From: a virus
Lineage: Duplodnaviria > Heunggongvirae > Uroviricota > Caudoviricetes
Length of the DNA stretch: 64,000 nucleotides
IMG/VR virus record: IMGVR_UViG_3300000944_000006
Coordinates: 18,380 to 82,379 of that record
Strand: one strand, 5' to 3'
The notes beneath the pieces were generated by a model. The model searched no databases and was not told the DNA's origin. It saw nothing but the letters and a program-made list of their open reading frames with translations. Shown piece after piece: positions 7,445-63,771 of the stretch. The position numbers were made by a program, and so were the translations under genes. Position 1 is the first letter of the stretch, and each line of letters begins with the position of its first letter.

Positions 7445-7702
7445 TTAACTTGCTAATGGAACAAAACTAGTAATGCCGACTCTTGTTCCATTATTATTTT
7501 CTTTAATAATTTCTTCCCAATCTTCAATAGTTTCACGCGTAGGATGTATTGATGAAGACGACACAAATGTTCTTCCAAGACATCCATTTTCAAGAAAATA
7601 ATGCACTAAATAGTGGTACGGAAAATCGTCCGCCGTAGCTTCGTTATTTTCATCTTCATTATTTTTGGATTTACCGCTATTAATACTAATAACATTTGAC
7701 AT
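7445..7702 (-). CDS. hypothetical protein (85 aa)
   Basis: ORF. Confidence 0.4.
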   Translation of the reverse strand: MSNVISINSGKSKNNEDENNEATADDFPYHYLVHYFLENGCLGRTFVSSSSIHPTRETIEDWEEIIKENNNGTRVGITSFVPLAS

Positions 7703-7848
7703 GATTATCTCTCTTTAAATTTAATAGTTGTTTTATAATTATCGCATTTTTCGCATGTCATGCCAAGTAAGATACCAGACGGTGCTACAAATTTATCTGT
7801 TAAAACATATCTATGCATACAGAATATTTGTTTTAGAAACTTTTTCAT

Positions 7849-8550: not shown

Positions 8551-8888
8551 GGCTTTTCCGCTTCACGTTCCCATAAATCTCTTTTAATAATTGTCATATA
8601 AATTACTCTTTTTGAGAAATTTGCCATAAAGATATCCCACTTATCGTCGGGATTCTCAAAAACAATATTGTAGACTTTACCTTCTTTAGTGTCGTCATAA
8701 ACAGTTTCTTTATATATAATATTCAATTCATCACAACCACCACCAATTCCCCAGACACTACCGCTCATATCTACATCAACAGACGCTAAAACGATATCGT
8801 CTGTCTTGTTAAGAATTACAACGTCAAGGTCTGCTACTTTAATGTTACCACTCTTATCAGAAACATAATTTAAAGAAGCTTTCATCAT
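8547..8888 (-). CDS. hypothetical protein (113 aa)
   Basis: 4-nt overlap with neighbours. Confidence 0.45.
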   Translation of the reverse strand: MMKASLNYVSDKSGNIKVADLDVVILNKTDDIVLASVDVDMSGSVWGIGGGCDELNIIYKETVYDDTKEGKVYNIVFENPDDKWDIFMANFSKRVIYMTIIKRDLWEREAEKP

Positions 8889-9427
8889 GACAAAAGCTTT
8901 CTAAAAGTAAGTGACACTCTCGGCTTAGCAGGGTCATAAGACATCTTAGGAATTCTATGAAGATGTGTTTGTTGCATACCCGCAGGCATGATAAACAACG
9001 ACCCATTTTCCAAAACTTTTTTATTGATAGAATCAACGCCTTTTGAACCAATTTCTTTCCAATTGATTTCACGATTTTGTCCGAAAGAAATGACAGCAAT
9101 AGGACATGTGTGGTCAATGCCTGCATCATCATCAGAATGCCATCCTAACCAATCCTTGCGTGTATCATATTTGTTAAGAAAACAGCCTTCGAAATATACG
9201 CCAGTTTTGACCAAAAGTTCAGCACGATAATATTCAATAAGGTCAAGATTTTCGTTCGGCTCATATGTACGCACACCACGGCCTGCGCCATATGTGTAAG
9301 GCTTGTTAAGTGTCGTATCCCAATATTCTTTACGTGGCGTATTCTCGCGCTGTATCCAATCTATTTCAAGAAGAGTTTCGTAATCTAATACGTCTGCGAA
9401 ATTTTTAAAATATAAAGGTTCCATCAT
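8885..9427 (-). CDS. 2OG-Fe(II) oxygenase superfamily protein
   Basis: WHSDDD (HxD), distal QTHLHRI histidine and RVSLTFR (2OG-binding Arg). Typical double-stranded beta-helix dioxygenase facial triad. Confidence 0.6.
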   Translation of the reverse strand: MMEPLYFKNFADVLDYETLLEIDWIQRENTPRKEYWDTTLNKPYTYGAGRGVRTYEPNENLDLIEYYRAELLVKTGVYFEGCFLNKYDTRKDWLGWHSDDDAGIDHTCPIAVISFGQNREINWKEIGSKGVDSINKKVLENGSLFIMPAGMQQTHLHRIPKMSYDPAKPRVSLTFRKLLS

Positions 9428-20736: not shown

Positions 20737-21100
20737 GTCTTTGCGTAACCGTGTCTACAAATCGAAAATCTTCAAATGTTAATTCGACTGTATGTGAAGG
20801 AAAATTGAAAGATGTGCTATGTATAGTTGACACACAAAGAATAGCTTCAAAATATAAAATAGATTTTTCTTTGTTAAAATGATTTATAACACGTCTTAGA
20901 ATTGAATTTGCGAAGTCAGTGTTCATTTGTTCATCGCTCGTAGGAAAAATATGTGCATAAATCTTGTGCGTACCTACAAAATAACTAACCATAACATTGC
21001 CACTATCTGTAATAATGACATCCCATGCAGTAGAAAAATCTATTTTAAATTTTTGCGGCGTTTCTAACATGGTTGAAATCTTTCTTTTCTTTAAAAGCAC
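20723..21100 (-). CDS. small protein, MYKYKI-family-like (QKFKIDFST)
   Basis: N-terminal region similar to the neighbouring gene. Confidence 0.4.
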   Translation of the reverse strand: MLLKKRKISTMLETPQKFKIDFSTAWDVIITDSGNVMVSYFVGTHKIYAHIFPTSDEQMNTDFANSILRRVINHFNKEKSILYFEAILCVSTIHSTSFNFPSHTVELTFEDFRFVDTVTQRHVQI

Positions 21101-22448
21101 CGTTATTATAAACTGTCGTTAGTTTATTGTCATCAAGTATATCATCTTCGCCTGTTGTATATTCTCCATTTAGATTAACAGATGTCAGAAATCCTTTTTT
21201 GAATTTCTTTGAATTGTTGGTGAATGATTTGAATGCGGCACGGCGTCCACCATCATCAATAAAAGAATTGGCAGAAGACATAAACTGAAACGTGTTTTTC
21301 GAAACATTTTGGTACATGCTTCCGCGCATACACAGCACAAAGTTGTTAATAGATACTTTACTTGCCTTACATAACTTAACAAAATTTTCAAAATCTTTTA
21401 GAGACTGCCAATCATACTGGAACATAATTTTAACACGATGCGAAATGCGATATCCACGGTCTGTTGTTGTCTGGGGGAAAGTTGCCAAAATCTTTTCCAT
21501 AAGCGCAATGACTTCTTCTTGTGTGATGCCGTTACCACATTTAAGATGCACTTTACGTGTTGTATATGATTCTATTTTTTCTTTTAATATTTCGCATATA
21601 TATGTTTCAACAGCATCTTCGGCATTATGTGTGTCAATAGTTAATGCGGTATTATCTGGCGTTTGCTCGCTGTCAAAGCTTTCTAAAAAGTGTTGATATG
21701 CAAGAACTTCGTTTTGAACGCCCCACGACAATGTGACAAGATTGTCATTTCCATTATATCCACTATTATCTGTAAAGAAATTAGAATAAATTTCATTTCC
21801 AATATTTACGGCAGATGTTGCTTCTGTTGTGTCAAAATTTATAAGATGTGCGATAGCTGTTATATCTGCTGTTTCCTTCGAAGACATTTCAGAAAAGCTT
21901 TCATCATGCAGTACAATATCTTCTGGGCCAATATCATCATATCCAATAGACGTTTCTTCGTCTATAATATCTTTTAAAATTTTCTTTATTTCTCGCGAAA
22001 TTGTAGCAACTGTGGATGGTAGCCATATCGCACGTAACAAAGCCTTTTCTATGTGCGACACAAGCCATGCACACTTAGGGTCTGTGTTGATGACTTGGTA
22101 TAAAGGCGTCTTAAACGGTACAACAGACCCTTCTGGCAGGGCTTGTATTTTTATTGGTATAGCGCCGTCATATGTTTTTAAAATATATTCCCATCCTTCG
22201 TAATTAAATTCCATACCAGATTTTTCTGCAACATTTTGTGCAATTTTCAAATCATCTTCTGTGATAGGTTTCGAAAGATGTTGATTTATAAAAAGGTGAT
22301 GTCCTGTATAGACCATTTCCTTAATAGGTTTGTACTTATCGTCAGACGAACCATTTGCTTCACCACACACAGACGCGTGTTCTAATGTTAATTGGTAATG
22401 ACGTGCAGCGTCAAGTTTGTGGAATAATGTGTTAAGAATAATGCTCAT
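21045..22448 (-). CDS. nicotinamide phosphoribosyltransferase (NAMPT/NadV) family protein, divergent; possibly non-catalytic
   Basis: Block EGWEYILKTYDGAIPIKIQALPEGSVVPFKTPLYQVINTDPKCAWLVSHIEKALLRAIWLPSTVATISREIKKIL aligns closely with NAMPT ([74 protein letters not shown]). Where NAMPT has HDFGYRG the phage protein has HDESFSE, and the His247-equivalent position appears to be Asp. Confidence 0.7.
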   Translation of the reverse strand: MSIILNTLFHKLDAARHYQLTLEHASVCGEANGSSDDKYKPIKEMVYTGHHLFINQHLSKPITEDDLKIAQNVAEKSGMEFNYEGWEYILKTYDGAIPIKIQALPEGSVVPFKTPLYQVINTDPKCAWLVSHIEKALLRAIWLPSTVATISREIKKILKDIIDEETSIGYDDIGPEDIVLHDESFSEMSSKETADITAIAHLINFDTTEATSAVNIGNEIYSNFFTDNSGYNGNDNLVTLSWGVQNEVLAYQHFLESFDSEQTPDNTALTIDTHNAEDAVETYICEILKEKIESYTTRKVHLKCGNGITQEEVIALMEKILATFPQTTTDRGYRISHRVKIMFQYDWQSLKDFENFVKLCKASKVSINNFVLCMRGSMYQNVSKNTFQFMSSANSFIDDGGRRAAFKSFTNNSKKFKKGFLTSVNLNGEYTTGEDDILDDNKLTTVYNNGAFKEKKDFNHVRNAAKI

Positions 22449-23759: not shown

Positions 23760-24341
23760 CTAAGAAAGTTCTTCAAAAACAGATGGAAAATCATCCGAAA
23801 AATGACCTTCGATTAAATTTTCTAATACAGTTTTGTTTAAGAAACATGACCGTATCTGGTGATTGACATAATACCATATAAAATCTAAACATAAAAGTGT
23901 GTACGCATATGGCTTAAACATGTCTGGATAAGGAAAGAATAATAAAAAGCCTGCGGTTGCAAGAAATACCATAGATGATATTATGGATGTTTTTTTGACA
24001 TATATTTTAATATCTTCTTGCCACACAAACCAGTAGCTAATTGTAGGTAGTGGATTTGGGTATCTTTTATATTTTGCGGCATATTCTACAACTTTTTTTA
24101 GCTGCTCATTAACAACCTTATGACGCTGTTTCAAAACACCATTTGCAGTATTTTGTAGACCAGTGAGGCCGACAGACATTGCTACAACACAACATGTAAA
24201 AATTTTGATGAGTATTAGGCCAGAAAGAAGAAGTTCCATATATGGGAAATTGATTGCAAACATTGCTGCAAGAAATGCTACACCAACAGTACTAGCAAGT
24301 ACATATTTCAACAATATTTTTTCCATAATAAAATTTCTCAT
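23760..24341 (-). CDS. integral membrane protein (about 4 TM)
   Basis: Several long hydrophobic segments. Confidence 0.45.
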   Translation of the reverse strand: MRNFIMEKILLKYVLASTVGVAFLAAMFAINFPYMELLLSGLILIKIFTCCVVAMSVGLTGLQNTANGVLKQRHKVVNEQLKKVVEYAAKYKRYPNPLPTISYWFVWQEDIKIYVKKTSIISSMVFLATAGFLLFFPYPDMFKPYAYTLLCLDFIWYYVNHQIRSCFLNKTVLENLIEGHFSDDFPSVFEELS

Positions 24342-24391
24342 TTGTTTGGTGTTATACTACGCCAATATAATCTAGATGTCAAATTTATATG

Positions 24392-24468
24392 TGGTACGCG
24401 AGGCAAGATTCGAACTTGCGATAGTTCCGTTATGAGCGGAAAGCTTTAGACCACTTAGCTACTCGCGC
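24392..24468 (-). tRNA. tRNA-Met or tRNA-Ile2 (anticodon CAU), CCA encoded
   Basis: Hand-folded cloverleaf: acceptor GCGCGAG/CTCGCGT, anticodon stem TTCCG/CGGAA, loop CTCATAA, T-arm GCAAG-TTCGAAT-CTTGC. 77 nt. Not initiator-like. Confidence 0.7.
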
Positions 24469-24482
24469 ACGACATATAAATT

Positions 24483-24529
24483 TGGAGCGAACAACGGGAC
24501 TCGAACCCGTATATCCGCTTGGTGTTGTT
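24483..24529 (-). pseudogene. tRNA 3' half remnant (T-arm GGGTTCGAGTCCC + acceptor 3' strand + CCA-like end), no 5' half
   Basis: Only 47 nt separate the flanking tRNAs. It contains a perfect T-arm and a 6-bp AACAAC/GTTGTT stem but no D-arm or anticodon arm. Confidence 0.4.
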
Positions 24530-24604
24530 TGGCATGCCCGACAGGACTTGAACCTGTGACCCCAGATTAAAAATCTGATGTTCTACCAACTGAACTACGG
24601 GCAT
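24530..24604 (-). tRNA. tRNA-Lys (anticodon UUU)
   Basis: Acceptor ATGCCCG/CGGGCAT, D-arm GTTC-AGTTGGTAG-AAC, anticodon stem TCAGA/TCTGG with loop TTTTTAA, T-arm ACAGG-TTCAAGT-CCTGT, discriminator G + CCA. Confidence 0.7.
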
Positions 24605-24749
24605 ATCTAACAACAATGTTTTTATCGAATCTAAAGGTACGTTCGATATACCTTTGCAAGTTCCAACGTCTTGGGTAATAATGCATACCGAACATCTTAC
24701 CAAGTGCAAAAGTAAATTTATAGAATCAATATTAAACCTTTTTGGCTAT

Positions 24750-25031
24750 TTAGTAAAGAGGAATAAGTTGCTTACAAGAAACTTTATTTTCTTTTCCATC
24801 AACGCTTATTACATTAACATAATGTTCATCTGAAGACACTATAAAAACTGTCCCAAGAATATTGTGTGCATATGGCTTACTATATTCACAGGACGTTCCT
24901 GTAACAGTTTCGTTTTTATAGCTATGGGGCGGCGGATATAATGCTAAAGAAGCTACAGCTAATATTAACACCAATCCTATCAAAACTGAAAAGAAAATAA
25001 CTTCGAAGCTTAAGTCGTCACAGTGCTTCAT
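24750..25031 (-). CDS. small membrane-anchored protein
   Basis: N-terminal TM VIFFSVLIGLVLILAVASLALY. Confidence 0.4.
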   Translation of the reverse strand: MKHCDDLSFEVIFFSVLIGLVLILAVASLALYPPPHSYKNETVTGTSCEYSKPYAHNILGTVFIVSSDEHYVNVISVDGKENKVSCKQLIPLY

Positions 25032-25183
25032 TTTTTATCCCTGTGTTGTTGATGTTACTATTACAAGAAATATGGCTATGCACACTAAAGAAATAGGCCA
25101 AAGTGCCTTAATAGCAACAACTTTATCTTCGTAGTTTTTCATAATAAAACATTTTAAATCAATTAAAACATTACGTCAATATG

Positions 25184-25909
25184 TTATCTTAGTCGATTAC
25201 GTCTTTTCTTGTTAGACCGCTTTTTAGACGATGCATTACCTTTAGAAAAAAGCTGCTTAGAATGTCTACTGTCTCGTTGCCCTTCTTTTGATTTAATATC
25301 GTTATCGCCAGACCTGTATTTTTCGTAGACCTTGTGTGCAGGTGATTTAAATGTCCAAAGGCGCTTTGTCATAACCTGTATTTCGCATATAACACCGTCT
25401 ATGTCGACTTTAAAATGATGACTTCCGTAATAGCCATAATCTTTATCACGACCTTTTTCTTTATAGTCATATTTAAAAATTATAGCTTTTTTCTTTAAAG
25501 CCTTTACAACTTTTTCAACTTCGTAATCGTCTTTAAGAAGAATAGCGCCTCGCAGAAAATCATGTATGTCACCTGCCGACACACCGCGCTTAAAAACTTT
25601 ATCAATAAAAGAATCTGCGGGCTTAACACCTATTAAAATTTTAGCACCTTTGCCAGATACATGTTTCATCAAACTTTCAAACTTTTTTGTCCGCACAGTG
25701 ATGTATTTCTTTGCAACAAAATCATATGCGGCAAATCTTTCATCGTCATTATTTGTAGGAAGGTCTTTAAAGTCCTTTGCCCAAGGCTGTTTCTTTACAT
25801 TAGACTTACGGCGTTCTGTCAAAAGAGAATCAAAGATGTCCCAATTTTCATTAAACTGTATTTTATTTTCTATCAAATCTTCATAATAAAAATCTGTAAA
25901 TCTATGCAT
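25184..25909 (-). CDS. RelA/SpoT-homolog small alarmone synthetase-like nucleotidyltransferase (toxSAS-like) with basic C-terminal tail
   Basis: RTKKFESLMK (R-x-K-x3-S-x2/3-K), DFLRGAIL (D-x-x-G-x-R region), YYGSHHF (Y-x-S-x-H), VICEIQVMTKRLW (E-x-Q-x-R/M-T) reproduce the RSH synthetase-domain motif order. C-terminus KKRSNKKRRNRLR. Confidence 0.65.
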   Translation of the reverse strand: MHRFTDFYYEDLIENKIQFNENWDIFDSLLTERRKSNVKKQPWAKDFKDLPTNNDDERFAAYDFVAKKYITVRTKKFESLMKHVSGKGAKILIGVKPADSFIDKVFKRGVSAGDIHDFLRGAILLKDDYEVEKVVKALKKKAIIFKYDYKEKGRDKDYGYYGSHHFKVDIDGVICEIQVMTKRLWTFKSPAHKVYEKYRSGDNDIKSKEGQRDSRHSKQLFSKGNASSKKRSNKKRRNRLR

Positions 25910-26324
25910 TCTTAACCTTGTTAAAATAAAAGCTGTCGCCGTTCACGTAGTATTTATAATTAAACTTATCAACAATTTCTTTTGCGAAGCGTTCATAGAT
26001 AATGAATTTCTTTTCTGTTCCGCCGCTTGTTGTGAAATAGAAGCTATTTGGACAGTTTTCAGTGATGTAAGCGAAGATATGGTTACGAACAGTAGCAAAG
26101 ACCTTAAGAGGGTTTTTTATGCGGTTCCCGTAACTTTTCGTTGAAGAGAATGTCCCAAAGAATTCTGTTTCATGTGTGATGAATGGCATACCATGCTTAT
26201 CGTATCCGCCAATGATATAGAACGTTATGTCACGGTCTTTTACTTCGAAGACATAATCTGTTCCATCAACAGTAAAGGCTTTTAAAACATGCTTAGTCAT
26301 AATAATATCGCATTTCTCCATCAA
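25902..26324 (-). CDS. hypothetical protein overlapping the RSH gene start by 8 nt (candidate partner/antitoxin)
   Basis: Translationally coupled gene immediately upstream of the RSH gene. Confidence 0.45.
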   Translation of the reverse strand: MMEKCDIIMTKHVLKAFTVDGTDYVFEVKDRDITFYIIGGYDKHGMPFITHETEFFGTFSSTKSYGNRIKNPLKVFATVRNHIFAYITENCPNSFYFTTSGGTEKKFIIYERFAKEIVDKFNYKYYVNGDSFYFNKVKNA

Positions 26325-26365
26325 TACGGCTTACCTTACCATAAAAGAACAATGATGTCAAATGG

Positions 26366-27193
26366 TTAGCTAAGATTTTCGAAAATATGCTTAAAGGATG
26401 GTAAAGATATGTCACAGCTTTCGACAGTATATTTCTTTTCACGGTCTTTAGGGCGGAAGTTTTTCTTTCTCATGATGGTTGTAGCAACTAAATCAAATTC
26501 TTTCTTAGAATTATCCCATTTTAAAAAGAATGGGCTGTTAACATTTGTCTTAAGGTCTGTAAGCACAGCACCTATGTCCTTGTGTCTGTTACCTGACTTG
26601 TTTATGTTTTTACCATGCTTTTTAAACGCTTTTATAAACAGGTCTTTTAATTCTTCTATAGTAATTTGCTTACCATTTCGAGAATCATTTAATCTGTCAA
26701 TAAAATGACGTGTAAATTCAATATCAATATCTAAGTTTTTCCACACGCGGTCAAGATAGTTTTCAAGTTCTTTTAACTGCTTTCTTGTGACAGGCGGGTC
26801 TTTTGATTCAAAAATAGTTTTTGAAAATGACTTTGGAAATTTATGTGCAAGACTTAAAAGACGTTCTATAGGTGTTGCTACAAGATATACAGCTATCTTT
26901 TCATCTGGATTTTCATACATCACGCCCATATATCTATGATGTCCATCAAGAATTTTCTTGTCTGAAGAAACGATTAAAGGCTTCTTCATAATTTCTTTAA
27001 CGCCCTTTTCTTTAATCAATCGAGCAAATTGTTGTATCTTCATGTGATTAAAATCAGATTGTGTTGGTTTAAGATTTCCTACGCGCACATATGTTTTGAT
27101 AGTTCGTATATTATGCTGCGTTTTAAGCCATTTAATAAAATCTTTAGCATGGGCCGATTTTATCTGGGGCATGTCTTTACGTTTGATGTCCAT
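26366..27193 (-). CDS. ParB/Srx-like nuclease domain protein
   Basis: LKPTQSDF...KKILDGHHRY matches the ParB N-terminal nuclease-domain signature (L-x-P-T-Q ... DGHHR). Confidence 0.6.
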   Translation of the reverse strand: MDIKRKDMPQIKSAHAKDFIKWLKTQHNIRTIKTYVRVGNLKPTQSDFNHMKIQQFARLIKEKGVKEIMKKPLIVSSDKKILDGHHRYMGVMYENPDEKIAVYLVATPIERLLSLAHKFPKSFSKTIFESKDPPVTRKQLKELENYLDRVWKNLDIDIEFTRHFIDRLNDSRNGKQITIEELKDLFIKAFKKHGKNINKSGNRHKDIGAVLTDLKTNVNSPFFLKWDNSKKEFDLVATTIMRKKNFRPKDREKKYTVESCDISLPSFKHIFENLS

Positions 27194-27208
27194 AAAGACT
27201 ATTTATAG

Positions 27209-27502
27209 TTAAGAAAATTTTATATTGTGTATATACATTTGACCATATTCAAGATGGCCCGAATCTAATTCTAAAGACGTTTCAAAAAATTTAATATTAC
27301 CACTGTTTCTCCAAGCATATGTTAAATCATCCATATCAATTTCAAAGTAAATATATTTTGCATGTTGGGGTATGTTAGTAGAATTTGGAAAATAAATTCT
27401 GGTATATATTTTAACATTATCGAAACGTAAATAATGTCTGTGTTTACCTAAAAAGTGTCTACCATCATTTTCAGACATATTGATTTTAATTTTTTTAAGC
27501 AT
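27209..27502 (-). CDS. hypothetical small protein
   Basis: ORF in a dense array of small genes. Confidence 0.4.
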   Translation of the reverse strand: MLKKIKINMSENDGRHFLGKHRHYLRFDNVKIYTRIYFPNSTNIPQHAKYIYFEIDMDDLTYAWRNSGNIKFFETSLELDSGHLEYGQMYIHNIKFS

Positions 27503-27816
27503 TATAAAAACTTTAATCCATAGATAGGTATGTGATAAAATAATTCTTTGTTTGTAGGCAAACTTTCTTCAAAAAATTCTGGCGAATAACCTTTTTGAAG
27601 GCATAGTCTAACAGCGTCTATATCAACTAGAAAATACGCATACGAAAAATCTTCAGTAGGCGTTTGATGTGTTGGAAGGTTTATGTCACAAGATACATCT
27701 GGTTCAATTTCAACAGCAAATACTTCTGCATTACCATCACCATAAACGCTTTTGCTTACGCTTCTACGAAACATATTCATATCTATTTTTAGTTTAACTT
27801 TAGTAAGATTTTTCAT
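27502..27816 (-). CDS. hypothetical small protein
   Basis: ORF in the array. Confidence 0.4.
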   Translation of the reverse strand: MKNLTKVKLKIDMNMFRRSVSKSVYGDGNAEVFAVEIEPDVSCDINLPTHQTPTEDFSYAYFLVDIDAVRLCLQKGYSPEFFEESLPTNKELFYHIPIYGLKFL

Positions 27817-28157
27817 TTTATAATAATTTCATGCATCGGTAAAAACCACGCGTTAGGTTCTCCGTTTTCATATCTAGGCAATTGGTTATAATAAATAGTA
27901 TCACAAAGTACAGGTGAATTATGTAATTTTTTCAGCACTTTATTAATTGCGTTAATATCACACTTAAAATAGATATTTTTCTCTCGGTGGTCGTTAAAAG
28001 AAATTATAGGCAATATAGTATCTACGCCCTTACGACTTTTGTGGAATCTAAAATAAATTCTTTTACCCAAATTGATGTCAAAAACCCATTCGTAAATACC
28101 ATCAGAATAAAAAGCGTCTGGACTATATAATTTAACATTAACCTTATTCATGTGCAT
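27813..28157 (-). CDS. hypothetical small protein
   Basis: ORF in the array. Confidence 0.4.
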   Translation of the reverse strand: MHMNKVNVKLYSPDAFYSDGIYEWVFDINLGKRIYFRFHKSRKGVDTILPIISFNDHREKNIYFKCDINAINKVLKKLHNSPVLCDTIYYNQLPRYENGEPNAWFLPMHEIIIK

Positions 28158-28533
28158 TATCCAAGATTTTTACAATTCTTCCAACAGTATTTGCGCCATC
28201 CCATGTTCTACATTTTCCTAAACATTCTTCAACAACGTTTATACGTTTTCCGCTTCTAAGAAATTCTTCTATTACATTAGGTGGTAAACTACACTTAAAT
28301 AAAATCGTATATTCGACACTTTTTACGTGGGTTTTATCTAACATAAAATTTTTTAATTTTCCATATGTGAGTGGCGATATATAAAAATCAAATGTATTAT
28401 ATTCTTCCAGACCTTTTCCTACCATAGTTTCTATGACATGAGTTTGTGTATCGCCAGAATCTAATTCTGTCGTGATATAGCTATTCTCTATGGAAGTTAT
28501 ATTTATTTTATAGTTATGTAACATCATCACCAA
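28144..28533 (-). CDS. hypothetical small protein
   Basis: ORF in the array. Confidence 0.4.
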   Translation of the reverse strand: MVMMLHNYKINITSIENSYITTELDSGDTQTHVIETMVGKGLEEYNTFDFYISPLTYGKLKNFMLDKTHVKSVEYTILFKCSLPPNVIEEFLRSGKRINVVEECLGKCRTWDGANTVGRIVKILDNAHE

Positions 28534-28924
28534 GCTTTTTAATATGTGTTATTTTTCCGCGTATAGCCATACCTTCATGCATCGATTTTGGCGTAATACC
28601 ATCTTCCAAAAAATTTATACGAGGTTGGTAAGAGGTATTTCTATCAAATTCTTTAAAAAAATAAAACATCTCTGCTGCAGAGATAGAGCATTCAAAAAAT
28701 ATTTCAACGTGGTTTATTATACCTGTGCCAACAATTTGTTCATTAAGGTTATGCAAGGAATATAAAAACTCTCTGTGTCCGTTTCTTAAATAGAAATCAA
28801 ATGGATTGGAACAGATATAATCACCATCAATAGTCAAGTGAAAACCAACTTCAATAAAGTCATTTTTTGTATCGGCATATTTTTCAAAACATATATTTTC
28901 AGCAATTATTTTATACTTATACAT
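28514..28924 (-). CDS. small protein, MYKYKI family
   Basis: MYKYKIIAEN. Start set at the MYKYK methionine. Confidence 0.45.
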   Translation of the reverse strand: MYKYKIIAENICFEKYADTKNDFIEVGFHLTIDGDYICSNPFDFYLRNGHREFLYSLHNLNEQIVGTGIINHVEIFFECSISAAEMFYFFKEFDRNTSYQPRINFLEDGITPKSMHEGMAIRGKITHIKKLGDDVT

Positions 28925-28938
28925 TTTTTCTGTCATTA

Positions 28939-29406
28939 TTATTCACCATCAATTTCTGTCAAACAGGATATATCCCAAAAACATCCAGACGCACAATCCC
29001 ATCCATAATACCAGTTTATATCATAGCGACAAGACCATTGATAAGGCGTTATTAAAATACCTTTATACGCACCATAAACCTTTTTCCAATCTATTCTGTA
29101 AAGACTAAGCAAGCCACCATTATTAGGATTTGGCTTTGCCCATTTCTTGTCAAATCGGCGTAATTCACTTTGCGATTTGATATGCAAAACATCTGTCATG
29201 TCGACATCAAATTTATACTCATGCTCACATTTTCTAAATGATTCGGTATCGCACCATGTTTTCCACCCAAGTTCTTGTTCATCAGACAACCAAAAACCGA
29301 CAGGCTTACCACATGCGCCTTCGTCTTTATCATATACTTCGAAAGAGCGGTTCTTATCGAACTGCCAATCTTCGGGATTACGTGATGGAAAATGTGATAA
29401 TATCAT
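28939..29406 (-). CDS. hypothetical Cys/Trp-rich protein
   Basis: GWDCASGCFWDISC motif. No family assigned. Confidence 0.4.
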   Translation of the reverse strand: MILSHFPSRNPEDWQFDKNRSFEVYDKDEGACGKPVGFWLSDEQELGWKTWCDTESFRKCEHEYKFDVDMTDVLHIKSQSELRRFDKKWAKPNPNNGGLLSLYRIDWKKVYGAYKGILITPYQWSCRYDINWYYGWDCASGCFWDISCLTEIDGE

Positions 29407-29412
29407 AATAGT

Positions 29413-29799
29413 CTATTCGTTATATACTGTAATACCGCTTCTTTCATCAACAATCTTGATTATATTACCTGTCGGCATTTGACCGAAAGAATAAGAATTT
29501 GTCTCTGGCGTTTCTAATATGTTTAAGCGGCGAGAGATTTTCTCGTCTCCTGTCTCAAAATATCCAATAATGTGGTCTTTGTGCATATCACATTCAAAGT
29601 ATAATGTATATTCGCCCGTAATTTTATCAATAGATTCAAATAAAGAAACTCTTTTATAGTCATCAAAATAAAAATCAATAATATTTGTATCTCGATGTTT
29701 TTTGTAACTATCGCTGTAGCATTCTATAAACTTTAAAGAATCTTCATCAGAGTAGATACTTAGACTAATAGACGTTATTTTTATTTTATACTTGTACAT
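29413..29799 (-). CDS. small protein, MYKYKI family
   Basis: MYKYKIKITS. Confidence 0.45.
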   Translation of the reverse strand: MYKYKIKITSISLSIYSDEDSLKFIECYSDSYKKHRDTNIIDFYFDDYKRVSLFESIDKITGEYTLYFECDMHKDHIIGYFETGDEKISRRLNILETPETNSYSFGQMPTGNIIKIVDERSGITVYNE

Positions 29800-30030: not shown

Positions 30031-30606
30031 TTAAAGTTGGCTACGAATCGTTCCGTGGTCGTTCAAGCAAGGGATTTTCATATCATCAATTTTGATATAG
30101 GCGGTTTCTTTTCCAAGAAATTCTTGTTTGCAAACTTCAACGCCGTTCCAATCAATATAACCATATTCAGGGTTTTTAGTAAGGGCTTCAACACTTGCTG
30201 TCAATGATTCAAATGTCCGTTCGCGACGAGCAAAAACATAGTCAGCGCCGCTTGAAATCAACACAGCACCTTCTACAGGGGCTTCGTTTTCTTGGCTTTC
30301 GACATATCCCATACTACCAGTTGTTCCTTGCACAACAGCTATAGACGCTGTTCCGTCAGGATGTAGCCACATCTTTTTGTAATAGGCCATATCAATCATA
30401 CCATCAAAACCTTTACCACTAAAAGCGTTGATAATTTCTTCAACTTCAGACTGCTTAGGCCCGTCTGTGTAAGAAACGTTAATAGATGCGCCACCTGCGT
30501 ATTTTTCAGACCGAACTGAAAACTTCGTTTCTGGGTATTTTGATTTTAAAGTCTTACGAATGATTTTCGCAATTTCGACAACAGATTTATAAACAGCTTC
30601 TGCCAT
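30031..30606 (-). CDS. hypothetical protein (about 191 aa), expressed from promoter cassette copy D
   Basis: Start set at MAEAVYK with GGAGAA 8 nt upstream. Confidence 0.5.
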   Translation of the reverse strand: MAEAVYKSVVEIAKIIRKTLKSKYPETKFSVRSEKYAGGASINVSYTDGPKQSEVEEIINAFSGKGFDGMIDMAYYKKMWLHPDGTASIAVVQGTTGSMGYVESQENEAPVEGAVLISSGADYVFARRERTFESLTASVEALTKNPEYGYIDWNGVEVCKQEFLGKETAYIKIDDMKIPCLNDHGTIRSQL

Positions 30607-30695
30607 AACATTTTCTCCATTTTTGCTACGAACTATAATTATCACACTATGTTGTGTATTGCAACACTTATTTTGATTTATTTTTAAATTTATCT
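30606..30695 (-). promoter_or_regulatory. early promoter/leader cassette copy D (TTGCAA, palindrome TGTTGTGTATTGCAACA)
   Basis: A 34-nt stretch AAATAAATCAAAATAAGTGTTGCAATACACAACA is identical to copy B (50855..). The leader is homologous to copies A and C. Confidence 0.6.
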
Positions 30696-31555: not shown

Positions 31556-32416
31556 CTATTTATTAACGTTGATGAACGGTACTGCGCCAGACCCCATATA
31601 AGTCGGTAATTGACCATTCCAAGATTCGACAGAACGTAGTTCAATCACTTGTGGATTACGGGCAATCGCATCGCCTTCCAAATCTAGTGCATCAGCTTTA
31701 GCTTTTGCTTCGATAAGAATTGCTTCAGCACGGCCTTTTGATTCCGCAATTTTAATTTGCGCTTCGGCGTTAGCTGTTTGAATTTGGTTCTCACGTTCTT
31801 GTGCGACCTGCGTGGCACGAATTTTCGCGTCGATAGACTGCACAACAGATGGTGGTAAATTCATTTCACCAATCCAGTAAAGTTTTTCGATATTGATACC
31901 GAATTGCTTAACTTGCGCCTGTACGTTAGCTTGGGCGTTTTTCATAAGCGTCACCTTACCTTCGCCATAAACAGCTTCGATAGGCATTACAGACCCGCCT
32001 TCAACAAGTGCATCACGTACCATGTTACGAAGATATACATCCGTAATTTCATGGATACCACGACGATATTTCTGGAATAGAATATCAACTTTTTCAGGGT
32101 CGACATAATACGACATACCAATATCAGCAGATACTACAAGACCGCCTCTTGTTTGGAATGAAACGCTTTCGTCAGTTTTAGAACCACGGCGCGAATCAGA
32201 AGTCCATTCTTCGTTTTGGGTAAATGTCGGGAAGATATGAAGTTCTTGCGTAGGCGGAATAAATTCATATCCCACACCTACCACTTCTTCATTGACAGCA
32301 TTGTCAGACCCTAATTTGTCAACTTTGACCCCCACATGCCCTACAGGGACTTTTGAACAAGCTGATACTGCTACGAGCGCAAGGGCTGCAATAAATGGTG
32401 TGAAAAATCGTTTCAT
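31556..32416 (-). CDS. SPFH/band-7 (HflK/HflC-stomatin-like) lipoprotein
   Basis: Lipobox LVAVSAC after a signal peptide. Central region and C-terminal coiled-coil AEAQIKIAESKGRAEAILIEAKAKADA are typical of SPFH-domain proteins. Confidence 0.65.
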   Translation of the reverse strand: MKRFFTPFIAALALVAVSACSKVPVGHVGVKVDKLGSDNAVNEEVVGVGYEFIPPTQELHIFPTFTQNEEWTSDSRRGSKTDESVSFQTRGGLVVSADIGMSYYVDPEKVDILFQKYRRGIHEITDVYLRNMVRDALVEGGSVMPIEAVYGEGKVTLMKNAQANVQAQVKQFGINIEKLYWIGEMNLPPSVVQSIDAKIRATQVAQERENQIQTANAEAQIKIAESKGRAEAILIEAKAKADALDLEGDAIARNPQVIELRSVESWNGQLPTYMGSGAVPFINVNK

Positions 32417-35102: not shown

Positions 35103-35741
35103 TCAAACTATATTTGGCATGTCGTTATAAAAATCTACAAAGACATCATATACGTCTGCAAGAGCAACAAAATCACAAGACGCATCATCTATACCATCAC
35201 TGTTTAAATCTGCTGTGCTATTAGTTGTCACAAGTATTCCTAAAGGTTCTCCATATTCAGAAACAACAGGCGAACCAGACATTCCACCACCTACAGGCTG
35301 ATAATATATATGTTCATAGGCGTCATGCGACAATATAAGTGGTGGATTTTCCATTTTGGCTATCCAAGTAGGTGTTACATAACCATCAGAACCAGAAACA
35401 TCTCTTTTGTAATGAACGCGCATAACACGTTCTGAAAGATGCCCTGAAGCATGGGGGTATCCCCACGTATAAAGCCTTTCCCCGCGTTTTGGTTCGCGTG
35501 GTCTAGCCATAGAAGATAAATTACAACCGATTAAAGCTGCGTCTATAACACCTGTTCCTGCCATTATTTCTCCGCTCACAAATGGTGGTAGTTTACGTTC
35601 TTGTTCTTTTAAAACATGCATAGCAGTTACCCAACCACCTGCCCATTGCCAATATGTTCCAGACGCTTCTACACGCTTTGATGCGTGGAAATGCTTTTTT
35701 ATTATAAATCCAAAGTCTTCAGGTCTTTTCATCACAATCAT
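35103..35741 (-). CDS. trypsin/chymotrypsin-like serine peptidase
   Basis: Candidate catalytic His in TAMHVLKE and an oxyanion/Ser motif GGGMSGSPVV (GDSGGP-like). Locally GC-richer codon usage. Confidence 0.5.
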   Translation of the reverse strand: MIVMKRPEDFGFIIKKHFHASKRVEASGTYWQWAGGWVTAMHVLKEQERKLPPFVSGEIMAGTGVIDAALIGCNLSSMARPREPKRGERLYTWGYPHASGHLSERVMRVHYKRDVSGSDGYVTPTWIAKMENPPLILSHDAYEHIYYQPVGGGMSGSPVVSEYGEPLGILVTTNSTADLNSDGIDDASCDFVALADVYDVFVDFYNDMPNIV

Positions 35742-42448: not shown

Positions 42449-43945
42449 TTATATTTTCTCCCACCTATCCGTTATAGGGCGTCCTACAGGGGCCATAGAA
42501 AAGTTTTTGTATCCATACTTAGATATAAGATTAACAATGTTCTTAACGTACTCATGATTGCAGTCAGACACCAAACGATTTACTAAACCATGTTCATCAA
42601 TATATTCCAGTGTTAAAACACAATGGTCGTAATCATGTGAATGGTCGTCATTAATTGAACATACAGTAAGACGTAGCGCATCTTTGGGGAAGTTGTAATC
42701 CTGTCTAAGACGATAATAAACTTCCAATGCCATGTCTTCGCAGTTATGTCCTAAAATACCATTTTCAAAAACAAATGTAGACGTTCCTGCTACTGTTATA
42801 TCGTAACACTTCTTCACGCCATTAGAAGTAATATCTTTAGTTTTTATCCTAGTTTGCCCAAGACCTTCAAAACCATAGTCTTTTTGATGTGAAGAATTTT
42901 TGTTATATATTACTCTATATATAGGCTGTGTTCCAGAACCGCCATGTTTCTCTTGCGTGTAAATTCTAGCAGACTTACCAACACGCAGTAAAGCGGCCTG
43001 TATCCATTCAGCAAATTTTTTACATGACGTTGAATATGTTTTATCAGGTTCCGTACCCCATCCACCGTTACTAGATTTTACATGATAATGTCCATCACCT
43101 AAAAAATATCCTTCAAGTATATAATTTAGACATACTTCTGGAAGATTTAAGTATTTGTCCATACGAATATCAAAAGAATTTTCCTTAAGTGGTTTTAAGA
43201 AATCCTTAAACCAAGACTTCAAAAATCTTACACAAGGAACACCAGAATTATTTTTAAATAATGTATAAGGAATTTTATATTTATCTAAAATAGGAAGAAT
43301 AAATTCAGGAATGTCATGTCCAGATGTAGAAACTTTACTAATTTTATTACTTCCCTGCGGACGGTCTACCCATCCTTCTGCAAGATAATGTCCCACAACA
43401 AACCAAATATCGTCATCAAGAACATTCTCAATTTCTGTGTATGGTAGATTTAAAGCACACGGAACATATTCCCAATGAACACTCTTTCCATCAATAATTT
43501 CTTTCAATTTTCTTTTTGTGTATCCGTTTTGTTGTTGTTTTTCTTTAGACCACATATTATGATTTTCTGTAACAACAATTTCATTTCCGTTATGAAACGG
43601 TACAGTAAAGGTTTCTAAATTTCCTTTATCCATTTTATTTATGATAACTTTATCAATATATTTTTTTTCGACAAAATCATAAGACATACAAACATCACCT
43701 ATTTGTGCATCTTTGATTGGAACAGCTACATATTCATCATTACGTTTTAACCATATTTTTTGATTTTCTTCTACACAATCACCTAATAGAATAGGTCTGC
43801 CAAAGAAATCCACATCAACAGTAGGACGCGTCCAGTGTTCAGGTACTGCCCAATTATTTTGGTCTGAACGCCATACGAAAATAGATTTAACATCCTCATG
43901 TACTTTTTTAAAAGTAGCTACCTGTGCGTGTGTAAGTTTTAACAT
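42449..43945 (-). CDS. intein-containing protein: 153-aa extein resembling a papain/transglutaminase-like Cys hydrolase, split by a 345-aa LAGLIDADG intein
   Basis: Intein blocks: C at N-junction (LLGD/CVEENQ), VVTENHNMW (T-x-x-H block B), two LAGLIDADG motifs (FVVGHYLAEGWV, ILEGYFLGDGHY), C-terminal YDITV...FENGILGHN followed by C. Spliced extein junction GDCEDMA (G-x-C-x-x-x-A) plus downstream HSHDYDH suggests a Cys-His-Asp hydrolase. Confidence 0.6.
   Translation of the reverse strand: MLKLTHAQVATFKKVHEDVKSIFVWRSDQNNWAVPEHWTRPTVDVDFFGRPILLGDCVEENQKIWLKRNDEYVAVPIKDAQIGDVCMSYDFVEKKYIDKVIINKMDKGNLETFTVPFHNGNEIVVTENHNMWSKEKQQQNGYTKRKLKEIIDGKSVHWEYVPCALNLPYTEIENVLDDDIWFVVGHYLAEGWVDRPQGSNKISKVSTSGHDIPEFILPILDKYKIPYTLFKNNSGVPCVRFLKSWFKDFLKPLKENSFDIRMDKYLNLPEVCLNYILEGYFLGDGHYHVKSSNGGWGTEPDKTYSTSCKKFAEWIQAALLRVGKSARIYTQEKHGGSGTQPIYRVIYNKNSSHQKDYGFEGLGQTRIKTKDITSNGVKKCYDITVAGTSTFVFENGILGHNCEDMALEVYYRLRQDYNFPKDALRLTVCSINDDHSHDYDHCVLTLEYIDEHGLVNRLVSDCNHEYVKNIVNLISKYGYKNFSMAPVGRPITDRWEKI
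42743..43777 (-). mobile_element. LAGLIDADG homing-endonuclease intein (about 345 aa)
   Basis: Boundaries computed from junctions ...PILLGD|CVEEN and ...GILGHN|CEDMA. Confidence 0.6.
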
Positions 43946-63748: not shown

Positions 63749-63771
63749 AATATTATTTATAAGATAACAAA

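What the first reader, a model, noticed from the sequence alone, without database searches (positions are those of the whole stretch)
25184..27193. Phage-encoded RelA/SpoT-homolog (toxSAS-like) alarmone/tRNA-modifying synthetase with coupled upstream gene and ParB-nuclease neighbour
The 241-aa protein reproduces the RSH synthetase-domain motif order (R-x-K-x3-S...K, D-x-x-G-x-R, Y-x-S-x-H, E-x-Q-x-x-T) and ends in a strongly basic tail (KKRSNKKRRNRLR). Characterised toxSAS enzymes synthesise (pp)pApp/(p)ppGpp or pyrophosphorylate the tRNA CCA end. A basic tail would suit nucleic-acid binding. The 140-aa gene upstream overlaps the RSH start by 8 nt, the arrangement seen for toxin-antitoxin pairs. 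A ParB/Srx-nuclease (DGHHR) gene is the next neighbour. In a phage that also carries its own tRNAs and a CysRS, this trio could form a host-shutoff or counter-defence module acting on translation. I do not recall such an RSH in T4-like phages, so it may be an undescribed accessory system.
Basis: partly seen in the sequence, partly recalled or inferred. Interest (0 to 1): 0.85.

Follow-up and report, generated by a model that had tools for sequence, protein, structure and literature searches.

The report
Phage RelA/SpoT pyrophosphokinase with conserved partners
A large T4-like phage carries a divergent RelA/SpoT-type "alarmone synthetase" whose two upstream neighbours are its recurrent partners in many other phages, which points to an uncharacterised phage-only nucleotide-pyrophosphorylation module, although such enzymes in phages are already known.

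Summary
The three minus-strand genes exist as described: a ParB-like gene (26366..27193), a 140-aa gene (25902..26324) and a 241-aa RSH (25184..25909), with an 8-nt overlap (ATGCATAG).

The 241-aa protein is a genuine RelA/SpoT synthetase-fold enzyme, by Pfam, a profile search of solved structures and a confident AlphaFold model. The literal R-x-K-x3-S lies in an N-terminal helix, and D-x-x-G-x-R is absent. The family has [D/G/N/Q]-x-K and D-x-x-R-G-A, so both canonical adenine-stacking arginines are missing from their usual positions.

It belongs to a virus-restricted clade of about 190-290 clusters at 50% identity. Members in Sinorhizobium phiM12-group phages and Paraglaciecola phage GD1 are already annotated "RelA/SpoT family".

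Comparative genomics supports the trio more strongly than the overlap does:
- The 140-aa family flanks the RSH in 16 of 22 informative loci, in variable order and orientation.
- Both domains of the ParB-like protein occur fused to the RSH domain in other members.
- A small HD hydrolase (SAH) is adjacent or fused in about 10 of 22 loci, but none was found in this window.

The substrate (alarmone or tRNA 3' end), toxicity and antitoxin role remain untested. The 140-aa partner matches no known toxSAS antitoxin type. Verdict: a new variant of a known kind, of moderate to good interest.

The parts
25184..25909 (-). RSH gene: 241-aa RelA/SpoT-homologue synthetase-only protein (small alarmone synthetase architecture)
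   Evidence: ORF confirmed. Pfam RelA_SpoT E=8.2e-6, 26.5 bits against a cut-off of 27. phrog_37685 E=1.5e-33. All 15 database homologues carry PF04607. The family profile hits RelP/RelQ-type small alarmone synthetases (3l9d 2e-6, 6fgk 4e-5, 2be3 2e-4) and Rel (5xnx 2e-4) among solved structures. AF2 model pLDDT 84. The listed Foldseek PDB matches are all RSH synthetase-domain structures: RelQ, RelP, Rel, CapRel, Tas1, FaRel2 and the exported SAS.
25313..25642 (-). Catalytic SYNTH core (aa 90-199): beta1, K96-x3-S100-x3-K104-x3-R108, D117-x-x-R120-G-A122, K150, G159-Y160-Y161-G162-S163-H164-H165, E176-x-Q178-V-M-T
   Evidence: Secondary structure from the AF2 model. Register taken from four HMM alignments to solved RSH structures. 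Residue conservation across 159 family representatives.
25187..25234 (-). Basic C-terminal tail (aa 226-241, ASSKKRSNKKRRNRLR, net +9)
   Evidence: Comparable basic tails (net >= +4) occur in 31 of 140 family members that have short tails, so the tail is recurrent but not universal. It has low pLDDT in the model.
25902..25909 (-). 8-nt overlap ATGCATAG between the stop of the 140-aa gene and the start of the RSH gene
   Evidence: Gene overlaps are common in this genome region, so the overlap suggests co-translation only.
25902..26324 (-). 140-aa partner gene ('p140'; phrog_24699), fold and function unknown. Possible alternative starts at 26321 (ATG) or 26300 (ATG).
26798..27193 (-). N-terminal domain (aa 1-132) of the 275-aa protein: ParB/Srx-like, with invariant L-D-G-H-H (DGHHR in the window protein)
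   Evidence: phrog_2859 E=1.5e-25; ParB-like PHROGs E=8e-4. Pfam ParBc_2 in 3 of 7 family members, best E=0.009. PDB free serine kinase (ParB/Srx fold) E=0.013. Found fused to the RSH domain in P0040/L018, P0063, P0112 (N-terminal) and P0132, P0115 (C-terminal). Found as a separate gene near the RSH in GD1 and L008.
26444..26809 (-). C-terminal domain (aa 129-250) of the 275-aa protein, function unknown (phrog_23027 / phrog_14518)
   Evidence: a stand-alone gene in Methylophilales phage Melnitz (52% identity) and in GD1. Fused N-terminally to an RSH domain in P0153.
24392..24604 (-). tRNA-Met (24392..24468) and tRNA-Lys (24530..24604), about 600 bp downstream of the RSH gene. Context only; not shown to belong to the module.
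   Evidence: tRNA genes lie within about 4 kb of the RSH gene in 6 of 24 loci.

Best explanation
The 241-aa protein is an active Mg2+-dependent ATP pyrophosphotransferase of the RelA/SpoT (RSH) synthetase fold. It belongs to a clade found almost only in large, mostly T4-like, virulent phages. It works as part of a module with the 140-aa protein upstream and the two-domain ParB/Srx-like protein before that. In many relatives a small HD-type hydrolase (SAH) that removes 3'-pyrophosphates joins the module or is fused to the RSH.

My preferred mechanism has three steps:
1. During infection the enzyme transfers the beta,gamma-pyrophosphate of ATP to the 3'-OH of a purine nucleotide, making a (p)ppGpp- or (p)ppApp-type alarmone. 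This throttles host transcription, translation and nucleotide metabolism in the phage's favour.
2. p140 acts as a protein-level restraint or regulator of the enzyme. In relatives the SAH acts as an eraser of its product. The RSH is almost never found without one of the two.
3. The ParB/Srx-like domain contributes NTP binding or sensing.

Shown: the fold, the catalytic residues, the virus-restricted distribution, the conserved partners and the fusions. Inferred: enzymatic activity, the acceptor substrate, the inhibitory role of p140, the role of the ParB-like protein and the benefit to the phage.

The confidence of 0.45 is for the whole statement including the nucleotide acceptor. That it is an RSH-fold enzyme has confidence of about 0.95, and that it forms a functional module with p140 and the ParB-like protein about 0.85.
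For: Enzyme identity:
- Pfam, PDB profile, AF2 and Foldseek results agree.
- Across 159 representatives these residues are invariant or nearly so: K96, S100, K104, R108, D117 (Mg2+ Asp), K150, G159, Y160, G162, H165, E176 and Q178. Such conservation argues for an active enzyme.
- E-x-Q is the element that reads the adenine of ATP in FaRel2 (PMC11782079), so ATP probably remains the donor.

Virus restriction:
- The pattern scan of 185,579 species genomes found one locus, on a 6.9-kb MAG contig.
- Contigs that carry family members have T4-type genes: UvsX, gp41-type helicase, rIIB, baseplate genes. The window's primase is gp61-like.

Module:
- p140 homologues lie within two genes of the RSH in 16 of 22 informative loci, whose RSH proteins are 29-47% identical to the window's. 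They lie upstream, downstream, convergent or divergent.
- An SAH is adjacent in L001, L003, L004, L005, L018, L020, L029 and L030, and is fused in 10 of 160 representatives.
- 20 of 22 loci have p140 and/or an SAH. Four of the six loci without p140 have an SAH.
- ParB-N is fused to the RSH in five representatives and ParB-C in one.

Nucleotide rather than tRNA acceptor:
- By sequence the family is closer to RelP/RelQ-type synthetases and Rel than to CapRel, FaRel2 or Tas1.
- Seven fusions have the HD-then-SYNTH order of bifunctional long RSHs.
- K150 aligns with the Lys of the RFKDYI motif of M. tuberculosis Rel.
- Iyer et al. proposed alarmone-mediated host shut-down for phage RelA/SpoT domains (PMC5512222).
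Against: - No SAH was found in this 64-kb window. Here the product would have to be handled by p140 alone or by host enzymes.
- The donor pocket is non-canonical. The Arg of R-x-K is G94 here (family counts: D 66, G 26, N 21, Q 17, R 9). The Arg of G-x-R is A122, with an invariant R120 two residues earlier. Both arginines stack on adenine in characterised RSHs (PMC11782079), so the chemistry may differ.
- High pI (9.8; family median 9.2) and recurrent basic tails fit a nucleic-acid substrate better than a free nucleotide.
- The region of RelQ equivalent to the FaRel2 tRNA-binding surface is acidic, whereas in FaRel2 that surface is basic (bioRxiv 2021.04.30.441581).
- SAHs also reverse tRNA 3'-pyrophosphorylation, so the SAH link does not discriminate between substrates.
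- The p140 domain also occurs without any RSH, as the N-terminal half of a 293-aa protein in Vibrio T4-like phages. It is therefore not an obligate RSH partner.
- No experiment exists for any member of this family.
Confidence: 0.45

Rival explanations
1. tRNA (or other RNA) 3'-end pyrophosphokinase of the toxSAS type. The RSH pyrophosphorylates the CCA end of host tRNAs to shut off host translation or exclude competing phages. p140 is a type II antitoxin-like inhibitor. SAHs in relatives restore the tRNA.
For: - The protein is strongly basic and has a basic tail; the family median pI is 9.2. FaRel2 uses a basic surface for tRNA, while the equivalent region of RelQ is acidic.
- The pairing with a small neighbouring gene is conserved and sometimes overlapping (window, L015, L020, L022), as for toxSAS pairs (PMC7229694).
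- SAHs reverse tRNA pyrophosphorylation.
- tRNA genes lie within 4 kb in 6 of 24 loci. A CCA-adding enzyme lies near the RSH in L008 and phiM12, and a peptidyl-tRNA hydrolase in phiM12.
- Foldseek gives CapRel the highest query TM-score, 0.54.
Against: - There is no sequence-level link to CapRel, FaRel2 or Tas1 at E<=10, while RelP/RelQ-type synthetases and Rel are found.
- p140 matches no known toxSAS antitoxin fold or family.
- Some RSH/p140 pairs are convergent or divergent (L016, L018, L023), which is unlike toxin-antitoxin operons.
- The tRNA-gene and tRNA-enzyme neighbourhood was not tested statistically, and accessory genes cluster in large phages anyway.
- A self-poisoning toxin-antitoxin pair has no obvious role in a virulent phage.
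Confidence: 0.28
2. Counter-defence enzyme. Together with the ParB/Srx NTP-binding domain, the RSH pyrophosphorylates or consumes a nucleotide used by host immunity, or pre-empts host toxSAS or stringent-response barriers. The module would be a dispersed version of the domains packed into phage polyvalent proteins.
For: - RelA/SpoT and DdrB-like ParB domains co-occur in phage polyvalent proteins thought to act early against host defences (PMC5512222).
- A solo LPD29 'large polyvalent protein associated domain' gene lies about 3 kb upstream on the same strand (30031..30645, E=1.7e-22).
- ParB-RSH fusions exist.
- Phage SAHs neutralise toxSASs (PMC7229694).
Against: The argument is purely contextual. 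No match to any PADLOC defence model was found. No immune signalling nucleotide is known to be a substrate of RSH enzymes.
Confidence: 0.1
3. An ordinary host-derived (p)ppGpp small alarmone synthetase picked up by the phage, with neighbours that are unrelated by function.
For: The closest solved relatives by sequence are RelP/RelQ-type enzymes.
Against: - The family forms a separate clade: 191 representatives at E<=1e-30, and it is virtually absent from 185,579 species genomes.
- It has its own active-site signature.
- Its neighbours recur and fuse with it.
Confidence: 0.04

Closest known systems
Small alarmone synthetases RelQ/RelP (SAS1/SAS2; PDB 5DEC, 6EWZ, 6FGK, 3L9D, 2BE3)
   Same: Single SYNTH domain of about 200 aa. 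These are the best sequence-profile and Foldseek matches. They share the K-x3-S-x3-K motif, the catalytic Asp and Glu, G-Y-x-S-x-H and E-x-Q.
   Different: Only about 20% identity. The phage family is virus-restricted rather than chromosomal. It lacks both adenine-stacking arginines at the canonical positions (D-x-x-R-G-A, [D/G/N/Q]-x-K). It is basic rather than acidic and has conserved p140, ParB and SAH partners. Whether it has the C-terminal tetramerisation bundle was not examined.
toxSAS toxin-antitoxin systems (FaRel with SAH and AT2faRel, FaRel2, PhRel/Gp29, PhRel2, CapRel), Jimmy et al. 2020 and Kurata et al. 2021
   Same: A synthetase-only RSH paired with a small conserved neighbour. 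In relatives the set of SAH, RSH and a second small protein recalls the three-gene FaRel operon, which either an SAH or a protein antitoxin can neutralise. The protein is basic. Some toxSASs are phage-encoded.
   Different: No sequence hit to CapRel, FaRel2 or Tas1. The partner is not pZFD, PanA, Tis1 or SAH. The hosts are large virulent phages rather than prophages or bacterial chromosomes. The orientation of the pair varies. Toxicity is untested.
RelA/SpoT plus DdrB-like ParB domains in phage polyvalent proteins (Iyer, Burroughs, Anand, de Souza, Aravind 2017, PMC5512222)
   Same: A phage-only association of a RelA/SpoT NTase domain with a ParB/Srx domain. Fusions of the two occur in this family. 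An LPD29 gene lies nearby.
   Different: Here the domains are small separate genes or two-domain fusions in the early/accessory region. They are not part of giant multi-domain virion-associated proteins. Whether the ParB domain belongs to the DdrB-like subfamily was not tested. p140 and the SAH were not found in the passages of that paper read here.
Annotated homologues: Sinorhizobium phage phiM12 SmphiM12_365 (AGR47997.1), Paraglaciecola phage GD1 gp92 (URC15216.1)
   Same: Same family: 46% and 34% identity by tblastn. Both are annotated 'RelA/SpoT family protein'. phiM12 has the p140 homologue immediately downstream (SmphiM12_367). GD1 has the ParB-N homologue (gp90) and an SAH (gp94) nearby.
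   Different: Gene order differs: p140 is upstream and overlapping only in the window. GD1 lacks p140. None has been characterised experimentally.

Membership tests
RelA/SpoT homologue (RSH) synthetase domain, PF04607 | Significant match to the family profile | tested here: met
   The window protein scores 26.5 bits (E=8e-6), just under the Pfam cut-off of 27. Family members score above it, e.g. P0040 42.8 and P0063 35.8 bits. The family profile hits RelP/RelQ-type synthetases and Rel in the PDB at E=2e-6 to 2e-3.
RelA/SpoT homologue (RSH) synthetase domain, PF04607 | Nucleotidyltransferase alpha/beta fold with a five-stranded sheet | tested here: met
   AF2 model pLDDT 84, with strands at 90-95, 119-125, 144-149, 164-170 and 173-181. 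54 Foldseek PDB matches at E<=1e-3; the 50 listed are all RSH synthetase-domain structures.
RelA/SpoT homologue (RSH) synthetase domain, PF04607 | Mg2+-binding Asp before beta2, the Glu/Gln of E-x-Q on beta5, and phosphate-binding K-x3-S-x3-K | tested here: met
   D117, E176, Q178, K96, S100 and K104 are present and conserved in 139-159 of 159 representatives.
RelA/SpoT homologue (RSH) synthetase domain, PF04607 | Two adenine-stacking arginines (R of R-x-K on beta1; R of D-x-x-G-x-R on beta2) | tested here: not met
   The positions are G94 (family: D 66, G 26, N 21, Q 17, R 9) and A122 (A in 135 of 159). An invariant Arg (R120, 151 of 159) sits at the canonical Gly position. The role of these arginines is taken from PMC11782079.
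RelA/SpoT homologue (RSH) synthetase domain, PF04607 | G-loop aromatic residue that stacks on the acceptor base | tested here: met
   Y160 is conserved in 156 of 159. Position 161 is Y, F or H in 154 of 159 and aligns with the G-loop Tyr of Rel and RelP.
toxSAS toxin-antitoxin systems | Membership of a validated toxSAS subfamily (FaRel, FaRel2, PhRel, PhRel2, CapRel, Tas1/Apk) | tested here: not met
   The family profile does not find CapRel (7ZTB), FaRel2 (8PU4) or Tas1 (6OX6) among PDB sequences at E<=10. These appear only as fold matches. PhRel, PhRel2 and FaRel could not be tested because no sequences were at hand.
toxSAS toxin-antitoxin systems | Conserved adjacent small gene (candidate antitoxin) | tested here: met
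   The p140 family lies within two genes of the RSH in 16 of 22 informative loci.
toxSAS toxin-antitoxin systems | Antitoxin of a known type (pZFD, PanA/DUF4065, Tis1-like, SAH) | tested here: not met
toxSAS toxin-antitoxin systems | Growth inhibition by the RSH, neutralised by the partner | not testable with these tools
   Needs a toxicity-neutralisation assay.
toxSAS toxin-antitoxin systems | Product is (pp)pApp or pyrophosphorylated tRNA CCA | not testable with these tools
   Needs in-vitro enzymology. The sequence does not decide it.
ParB/Srx superfamily (the 275-aa neighbour, N-terminal domain) | Profile or structure match to ParB/Srx, with the conserved D-G-x-H-R active-site motif | tested here: inconclusive
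   L-D-G-H-H is invariant in 7 of 7 aligned domains. Profile support is weak: ParB-like PHROGs E=8e-4, Pfam ParBc_2 best E=0.009 in 3 of 7 members, PDB free serine kinase E=0.013.
ParB/Srx superfamily (the 275-aa neighbour, N-terminal domain) | Nuclease activity | not testable with these tools
   The 'nuclease' label rests only on annotation of a homologue (GD1 gp90).

The most novel reading that the evidence does not exclude
The rewired ATP pocket, the basic surface and the obligate company of a ParB/Srx NTP-binding domain, an orphan-fold protein (p140) and an HD eraser could define a virus-only, four-part writer/regulator/eraser system. Its product would not be classical (p)ppGpp. It could be 3'-pyrophosphorylation of host tRNA or another RNA while the phage's own tRNAs escape, or a new signalling nucleotide used for host take-over or immune evasion.
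Probability: 0.22. Interest if true: 0.85.

Novelty: new variant of a known kind. Interest (0 to 1): 0.6.

Why it matters
RSH enzymes are the writers of the bacterial stringent response and, as toxSASs, of tRNA 3'-pyrophosphorylation. Known phage-borne examples are prophage toxin-antitoxin or exclusion modules and MuF or polyvalent toxins.

This family differs in four ways:
- It is a sizeable clade (about 190-290 clusters at 50% identity) confined to large virulent phages.
- It has a family-specific active-site signature.
- It has an orphan conserved partner.
- It forms recurrent fusions to ParB/Srx and HD-hydrolase domains.

If it makes alarmones, virulent phages actively write the host's stringent signal instead of only erasing it. 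If it modifies tRNA, it would be a phage offensive use of a mechanism so far known from bacterial defence. Both possibilities can be tested directly with a 241-aa and a 140-aa protein.

Tried and rejected
- Near-identical phage genomes: a megablast of 24000..28000 against 50,697 phage records found nothing. The phage is uncultured and only distantly T4-like.
- PADLOC and NCBIfam: no hits for any of the three proteins.
- The single RSH sequence against PDB sequences: nothing significant. A family profile was needed.
- Word-index search with p140 alone returned only itself. The family had to be assembled from neighbouring ORFs of RSH loci.
- p140-RSH fusions: none among 160 representatives.
- IMG/VR search seeded with the p140 alignment failed because no conserved stretch was long enough. 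The reverse conditional, RSH given p140, therefore rests only on the phage collection.
- RNA antitoxin or repeat array (type III toxin-antitoxin): no Rfam hit other than the tRNAs and no meaningful tandem repeats.
- Promoters and terminators: sites are no more frequent than in shuffled sequence. The TTGACA-17-TAAGGT I saw upstream of p140 fails the scan's criteria.
- SAH in the window: not found with a local HMM of four phage SAHs or with Pfam scans of 28 of its ORFs. The other ~87 kb of the 151-kb contig could not be examined.
- Subfamily assignment in the Jimmy et al. scheme: the supplementary tables are not held.
- Complex prediction for RSH with p140 was not possible with the tools.
Full report
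**1. What is in the sequence**

Positions 24.7-27.2 kb carry a run of co-directional minus-strand genes:
- a 275-aa ORF at 26366..27193;
- a 140-aa ORF at 25902..26324, with a TTG start (an independent gene call starts one codon later and gives 139 aa);
- a 241-aa ORF at 25184..25909;
- two very small membrane-like ORFs at 25035..25142 (35 aa) and 24750..25031 (93 aa);
- tRNA-Lys (24530..24604) and tRNA-Met (24392..24468).

The 140-aa and 241-aa genes overlap by 8 nt (ATGCATAG). An AAGG lies 6 nt before the downstream ATG.

Six of 13 gene junctions in this neighbourhood overlap by 1-20 nt. The overlap is therefore normal for this genome and is not evidence of a toxin-antitoxin pair.

The window comes from an uncultured phage: the RSH protein (P0001) is on record on a contig of 151,219 bp. 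Its genes include:
- a gp61-type primase, about 37% identical to those of T4-like cyanophages, and a ribonucleotide reductase interrupted by an intein;
- a DNA ligase and a NAMPT-like gene;
- a class-I CysRS.

No close relative exists among 50,697 phage records.

**2. The 241-aa protein is a real RSH synthetase, but the cited motifs are only half right**

The evidence for RSH identity is consistent:
- Pfam RelA_SpoT matches residues 95-194 at E=8e-6. The score of 26.5 bits is just under the cut-off of 27.
- All 15 database homologues carry PF04607.
- A profile of these sequences finds RelP/RelQ-type small alarmone synthetases, Rel and RelA among solved structures, at E=2e-6 to 2e-3.
- The AlphaFold model is confident (pLDDT 84; more than 90 in the core) and has the five-stranded nucleotidyltransferase sheet.
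- Foldseek against the PDB returns 54 matches at E<=1e-3. The 50 listed are all RSH synthetase-domain structures: RelQ, RelP, Rel, the exported SAS, CapRel, Tas1 and FaRel2.

Four independent HMM alignments to solved RSHs give one consistent register:
- G94-V-K96-x3-S100-x3-K104-x3-R108 corresponds to R-x-K-x3-S-x3-K.
- D117-F-L-R120-G-A122 corresponds to D-x-x-G-x-R.
- G159-Y160-Y161-G162-S163-H164-H165 corresponds to G-Y-x-S-x-H.
- E176-I-Q178-V-M-T corresponds to E-x-Q-x-R-T.

A literal D-x-x-G-x-R is absent. The only literal R-x-K-x3-S, at residue 73, lies in the N-terminal helix and is a chance match.

**3. A virus-restricted clade with its own active-site signature**

A full HMMER scan of 1.84 billion representative proteins gives 191 hits at E<=1e-30 and 289 at E<=1e-10.

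In 159 representatives the following are conserved in at least 151 of 159: K96, K104, R108, D117, R120, K150, G159, Y160, G162, H165, E176, Q178, K188, H192, Y195 and R199.

Two positions differ from the canonical pattern. The Arg of R-x-K is D, G, N or Q in most members and Arg in only 9 of 159. The Arg of G-x-R is Ala in 135 of 159.

In FaRel2 and other RSHs these two arginines sandwich the adenine of the donor ATP, and E-x-Q reads the base (PMC11782079). R120 lies on the same face of beta-2, one rung earlier, so it could substitute. This is inference. E176 and Q178 are invariant, so ATP probably remains the donor. None of the RSH papers I read describes this rearranged donor pocket.

A pattern scan of one genome from each of 185,579 species found a single locus, on a 6.9-kb MAG contig. 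IMG/VR and metagenome contigs that carry the gene have T4-type replication, rII and baseplate genes.

GenBank homologues are already labelled 'RelA/SpoT family protein'. These are Sinorhizobium phages phiM12, phiM19 and phiN3, which belong to the T4 superfamily, and Paraglaciecola phage GD1. An RSH in T4-like phages is therefore not unprecedented.

**4. The neighbours are real partners**

I extracted ORFs from 30 related loci and searched them with local HMMs.

*p140.* The 140-aa protein belongs to a small family (phrog_24699) that lies within two genes of the RSH in 16 of 22 informative distinct loci.
- It is usually immediately downstream and co-directional: phiM12, L003, L010, L013, L015, L020-L022, L024, L027 and L028.
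- It is two genes downstream in L005, convergent in L018 and L023, and divergent in L016.
- It is upstream and overlapping only in this window.
- The RSH proteins of these loci are only 29-47% identical to the window protein. The p140 family is rare (9 clusters found in 5.8 billion proteins). The association cannot be chance.

*SAH.* A small HD_4 hydrolase of 135-160 aa is the other frequent neighbour.
- It is adjacent in GD1, L003, L004, L005, L018, L020, L029 and L030.
- It is fused to the RSH in 10 of 160 representatives: 7 N-terminal, which is the HD-SYNTH order of long RSHs, and 3 C-terminal.
- Twenty of 22 loci have p140, an SAH or both. Four of the six loci without p140 have an SAH.
- This pattern is what one expects if each restrains the enzyme or erases its product. 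It recalls the three-gene FaRel operon, which either an SAH or a protein antitoxin can neutralise (PMC7229694).
- No SAH was found in this 64-kb window.

*The 275-aa protein.* It has two domains.
- The N-terminal domain (aa 1-132; invariant L-D-G-H-H) is widespread in phages, with 347 records.
- Evidence that it belongs to the ParB/Srx superfamily is weak but consistent: PHROG E=8e-4, Pfam ParBc_2 E=0.009, and PDB free serine kinase E=0.013.
- It is fused to the RSH domain N-terminally in P0040 (the L018 ORF), P0063 and P0112, and C-terminally in P0132 and P0115.
- The C-terminal domain (aa 129-250) is fused to an RSH in P0153.
- Solo ParB-N genes lie just upstream of the RSH in GD1 (gp90) and L008.

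The association echoes Iyer et al. 2017, who found RelA/SpoT and DdrB-like ParB domains together in phage polyvalent proteins. They proposed alarmone-type host shut-down and NTP sensing (PMC5512222). A solo LPD29 polyvalent-protein domain gene lies about 3 kb upstream.

**5. What p140 is not**

- It has no Pfam, NCBIfam, PADLOC or PDB sequence match.
- It is not a pZFD, PanA, Tis1 or SAH antitoxin.
- The domain also occurs without an RSH, as the N-terminal half of a 293-aa protein in Vibrio T4-like phages.
- No RNA antitoxin or repeat array is present.

**6. Mechanism**

Shown: an RSH-fold protein with all catalytic residues under strong conservation, restricted to viruses, in a recurrent module with p140, a ParB/Srx-like protein and an SAH.

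Inferred and preferred (confidence about 0.45): it is an ATP-dependent 3'-pyrophosphokinase that makes (p)ppGpp- or (p)ppApp-type nucleotides during infection. p140 restrains it, and in relatives the SAH does too. The arguments are:
- it is closer in sequence to RelP/RelQ-type synthetases and Rel than to CapRel, FaRel2 or Tas1;
- some fusions have the HD-SYNTH order of long RSHs;
- K150 aligns with the Lys of the RFKDYI acceptor motif of Rel.

Main rival (about 0.28): tRNA or RNA 3'-end pyrophosphorylation of the toxSAS type. The arguments are:
- pI is 9.8 (family median 9.2), and basic tails occur in 31 of 140 members;
- tRNA genes and tRNA-end enzymes lie nearby in several loci;
- SAHs also reverse tRNA pyrophosphorylation.

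Sequence alone cannot decide between the two.

**7. Verdict**

RSH identity and the functional trio hold. toxSAS membership, the tRNA target, the nuclease label and the claim of no precedent in T4-like phages do not.
- The finding is a new variant of a known kind: a phage-only SAS clade with a non-canonical donor site and uncharacterised conserved partners.
- I found no paper that describes this module.

Noticed in passing
window 1437..2537 (-): A phage-encoded class-I cysteinyl-tRNA synthetase catalytic domain (Pfam tRNA-synt_1e, E=1.8e-111; 366 aa). As far as I recall, aminoacyl-tRNA synthetases are uncommon in phages of this size.
   Followed up: partly
window 54322..57135 (-) and 42449..43945 (-): The ribonucleotide reductase large subunit is interrupted by an intein with a LAGLIDADG endonuclease. 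A second 498-aa ORF also carries intein-splicing and LAGLIDADG domains; its host protein was not identified. A homing endonuclease gene lies at 63077..63817.
   Followed up: no
window 30031..30645 (-): A solo gene with LPD29, a 'large polyvalent protein associated domain' (E=1.7e-22). It lies about 3 kb upstream of the ParB-like gene on the same strand. This fits the idea that the region holds dispersed polyvalent-protein modules.
   Followed up: partly
window 27209..29799 (-): A cluster of small tandem genes directly upstream of the ParB-like gene, with overlapping junctions. The 129-aa (28144..28533), 140-aa (28514..28936) and 128-aa (29413..29799) proteins are paralogues at about 29% identity. 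The 97-aa and 104-aa proteins (27209..27816) are weakly related to each other. No family match was found for the two that were scanned.
   Followed up: partly
window 24750..25142 (-): Two tiny ORFs (35 aa and 93 aa) with hydrophobic, membrane-like segments lie between the RSH gene and the tRNA genes. A good sigma-70-like site (TTGACG-17-TAAAAT, 25179..25151) sits just after the RSH stop codon.
   Followed up: no
window 21045..22448 (-): A NAMPT-like (nicotinamide phosphoribosyltransferase) gene, indicating phage NAD salvage. Elsewhere the window also has an SPFH/Band-7 protein (31556..32416), a 2OG-Fe(II) oxygenase (8885..9427) and a trypsin-like peptidase (35103..35741).
   Followed up: no
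L004 2641..4295 and 7449..7796; L012 373..4318: In a related metagenomic phage (L004) the RSH-SAH pair sits beside six tRNA genes and a predicted tmRNA. In another (L012) the RSH follows a 7-deazaguanine/queuosine-type cluster (radical SAM, GTP cyclohydrolase I, QueC, PTPS).
   Followed up: no
L017 3426..4307 (Vibrio phage VH7D, AGB07066.1): The p140-like domain forms the N-terminal half of a 293-aa protein next to DNA ligase in Vibrio T4-like (Schizotequatrovirus) phages, and no RSH was seen at that locus or in these phages in the RSH protein search. The C-terminal half has no detectable family.
   Followed up: partly
window RSH aa 32-55 (about 25745..25816): A conserved Q-P-W motif (consensus Q-x-W) lies N-terminal to the SYNTH core in many family members. 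Its function is unknown, and it is modelled with moderate confidence.
   Followed up: no
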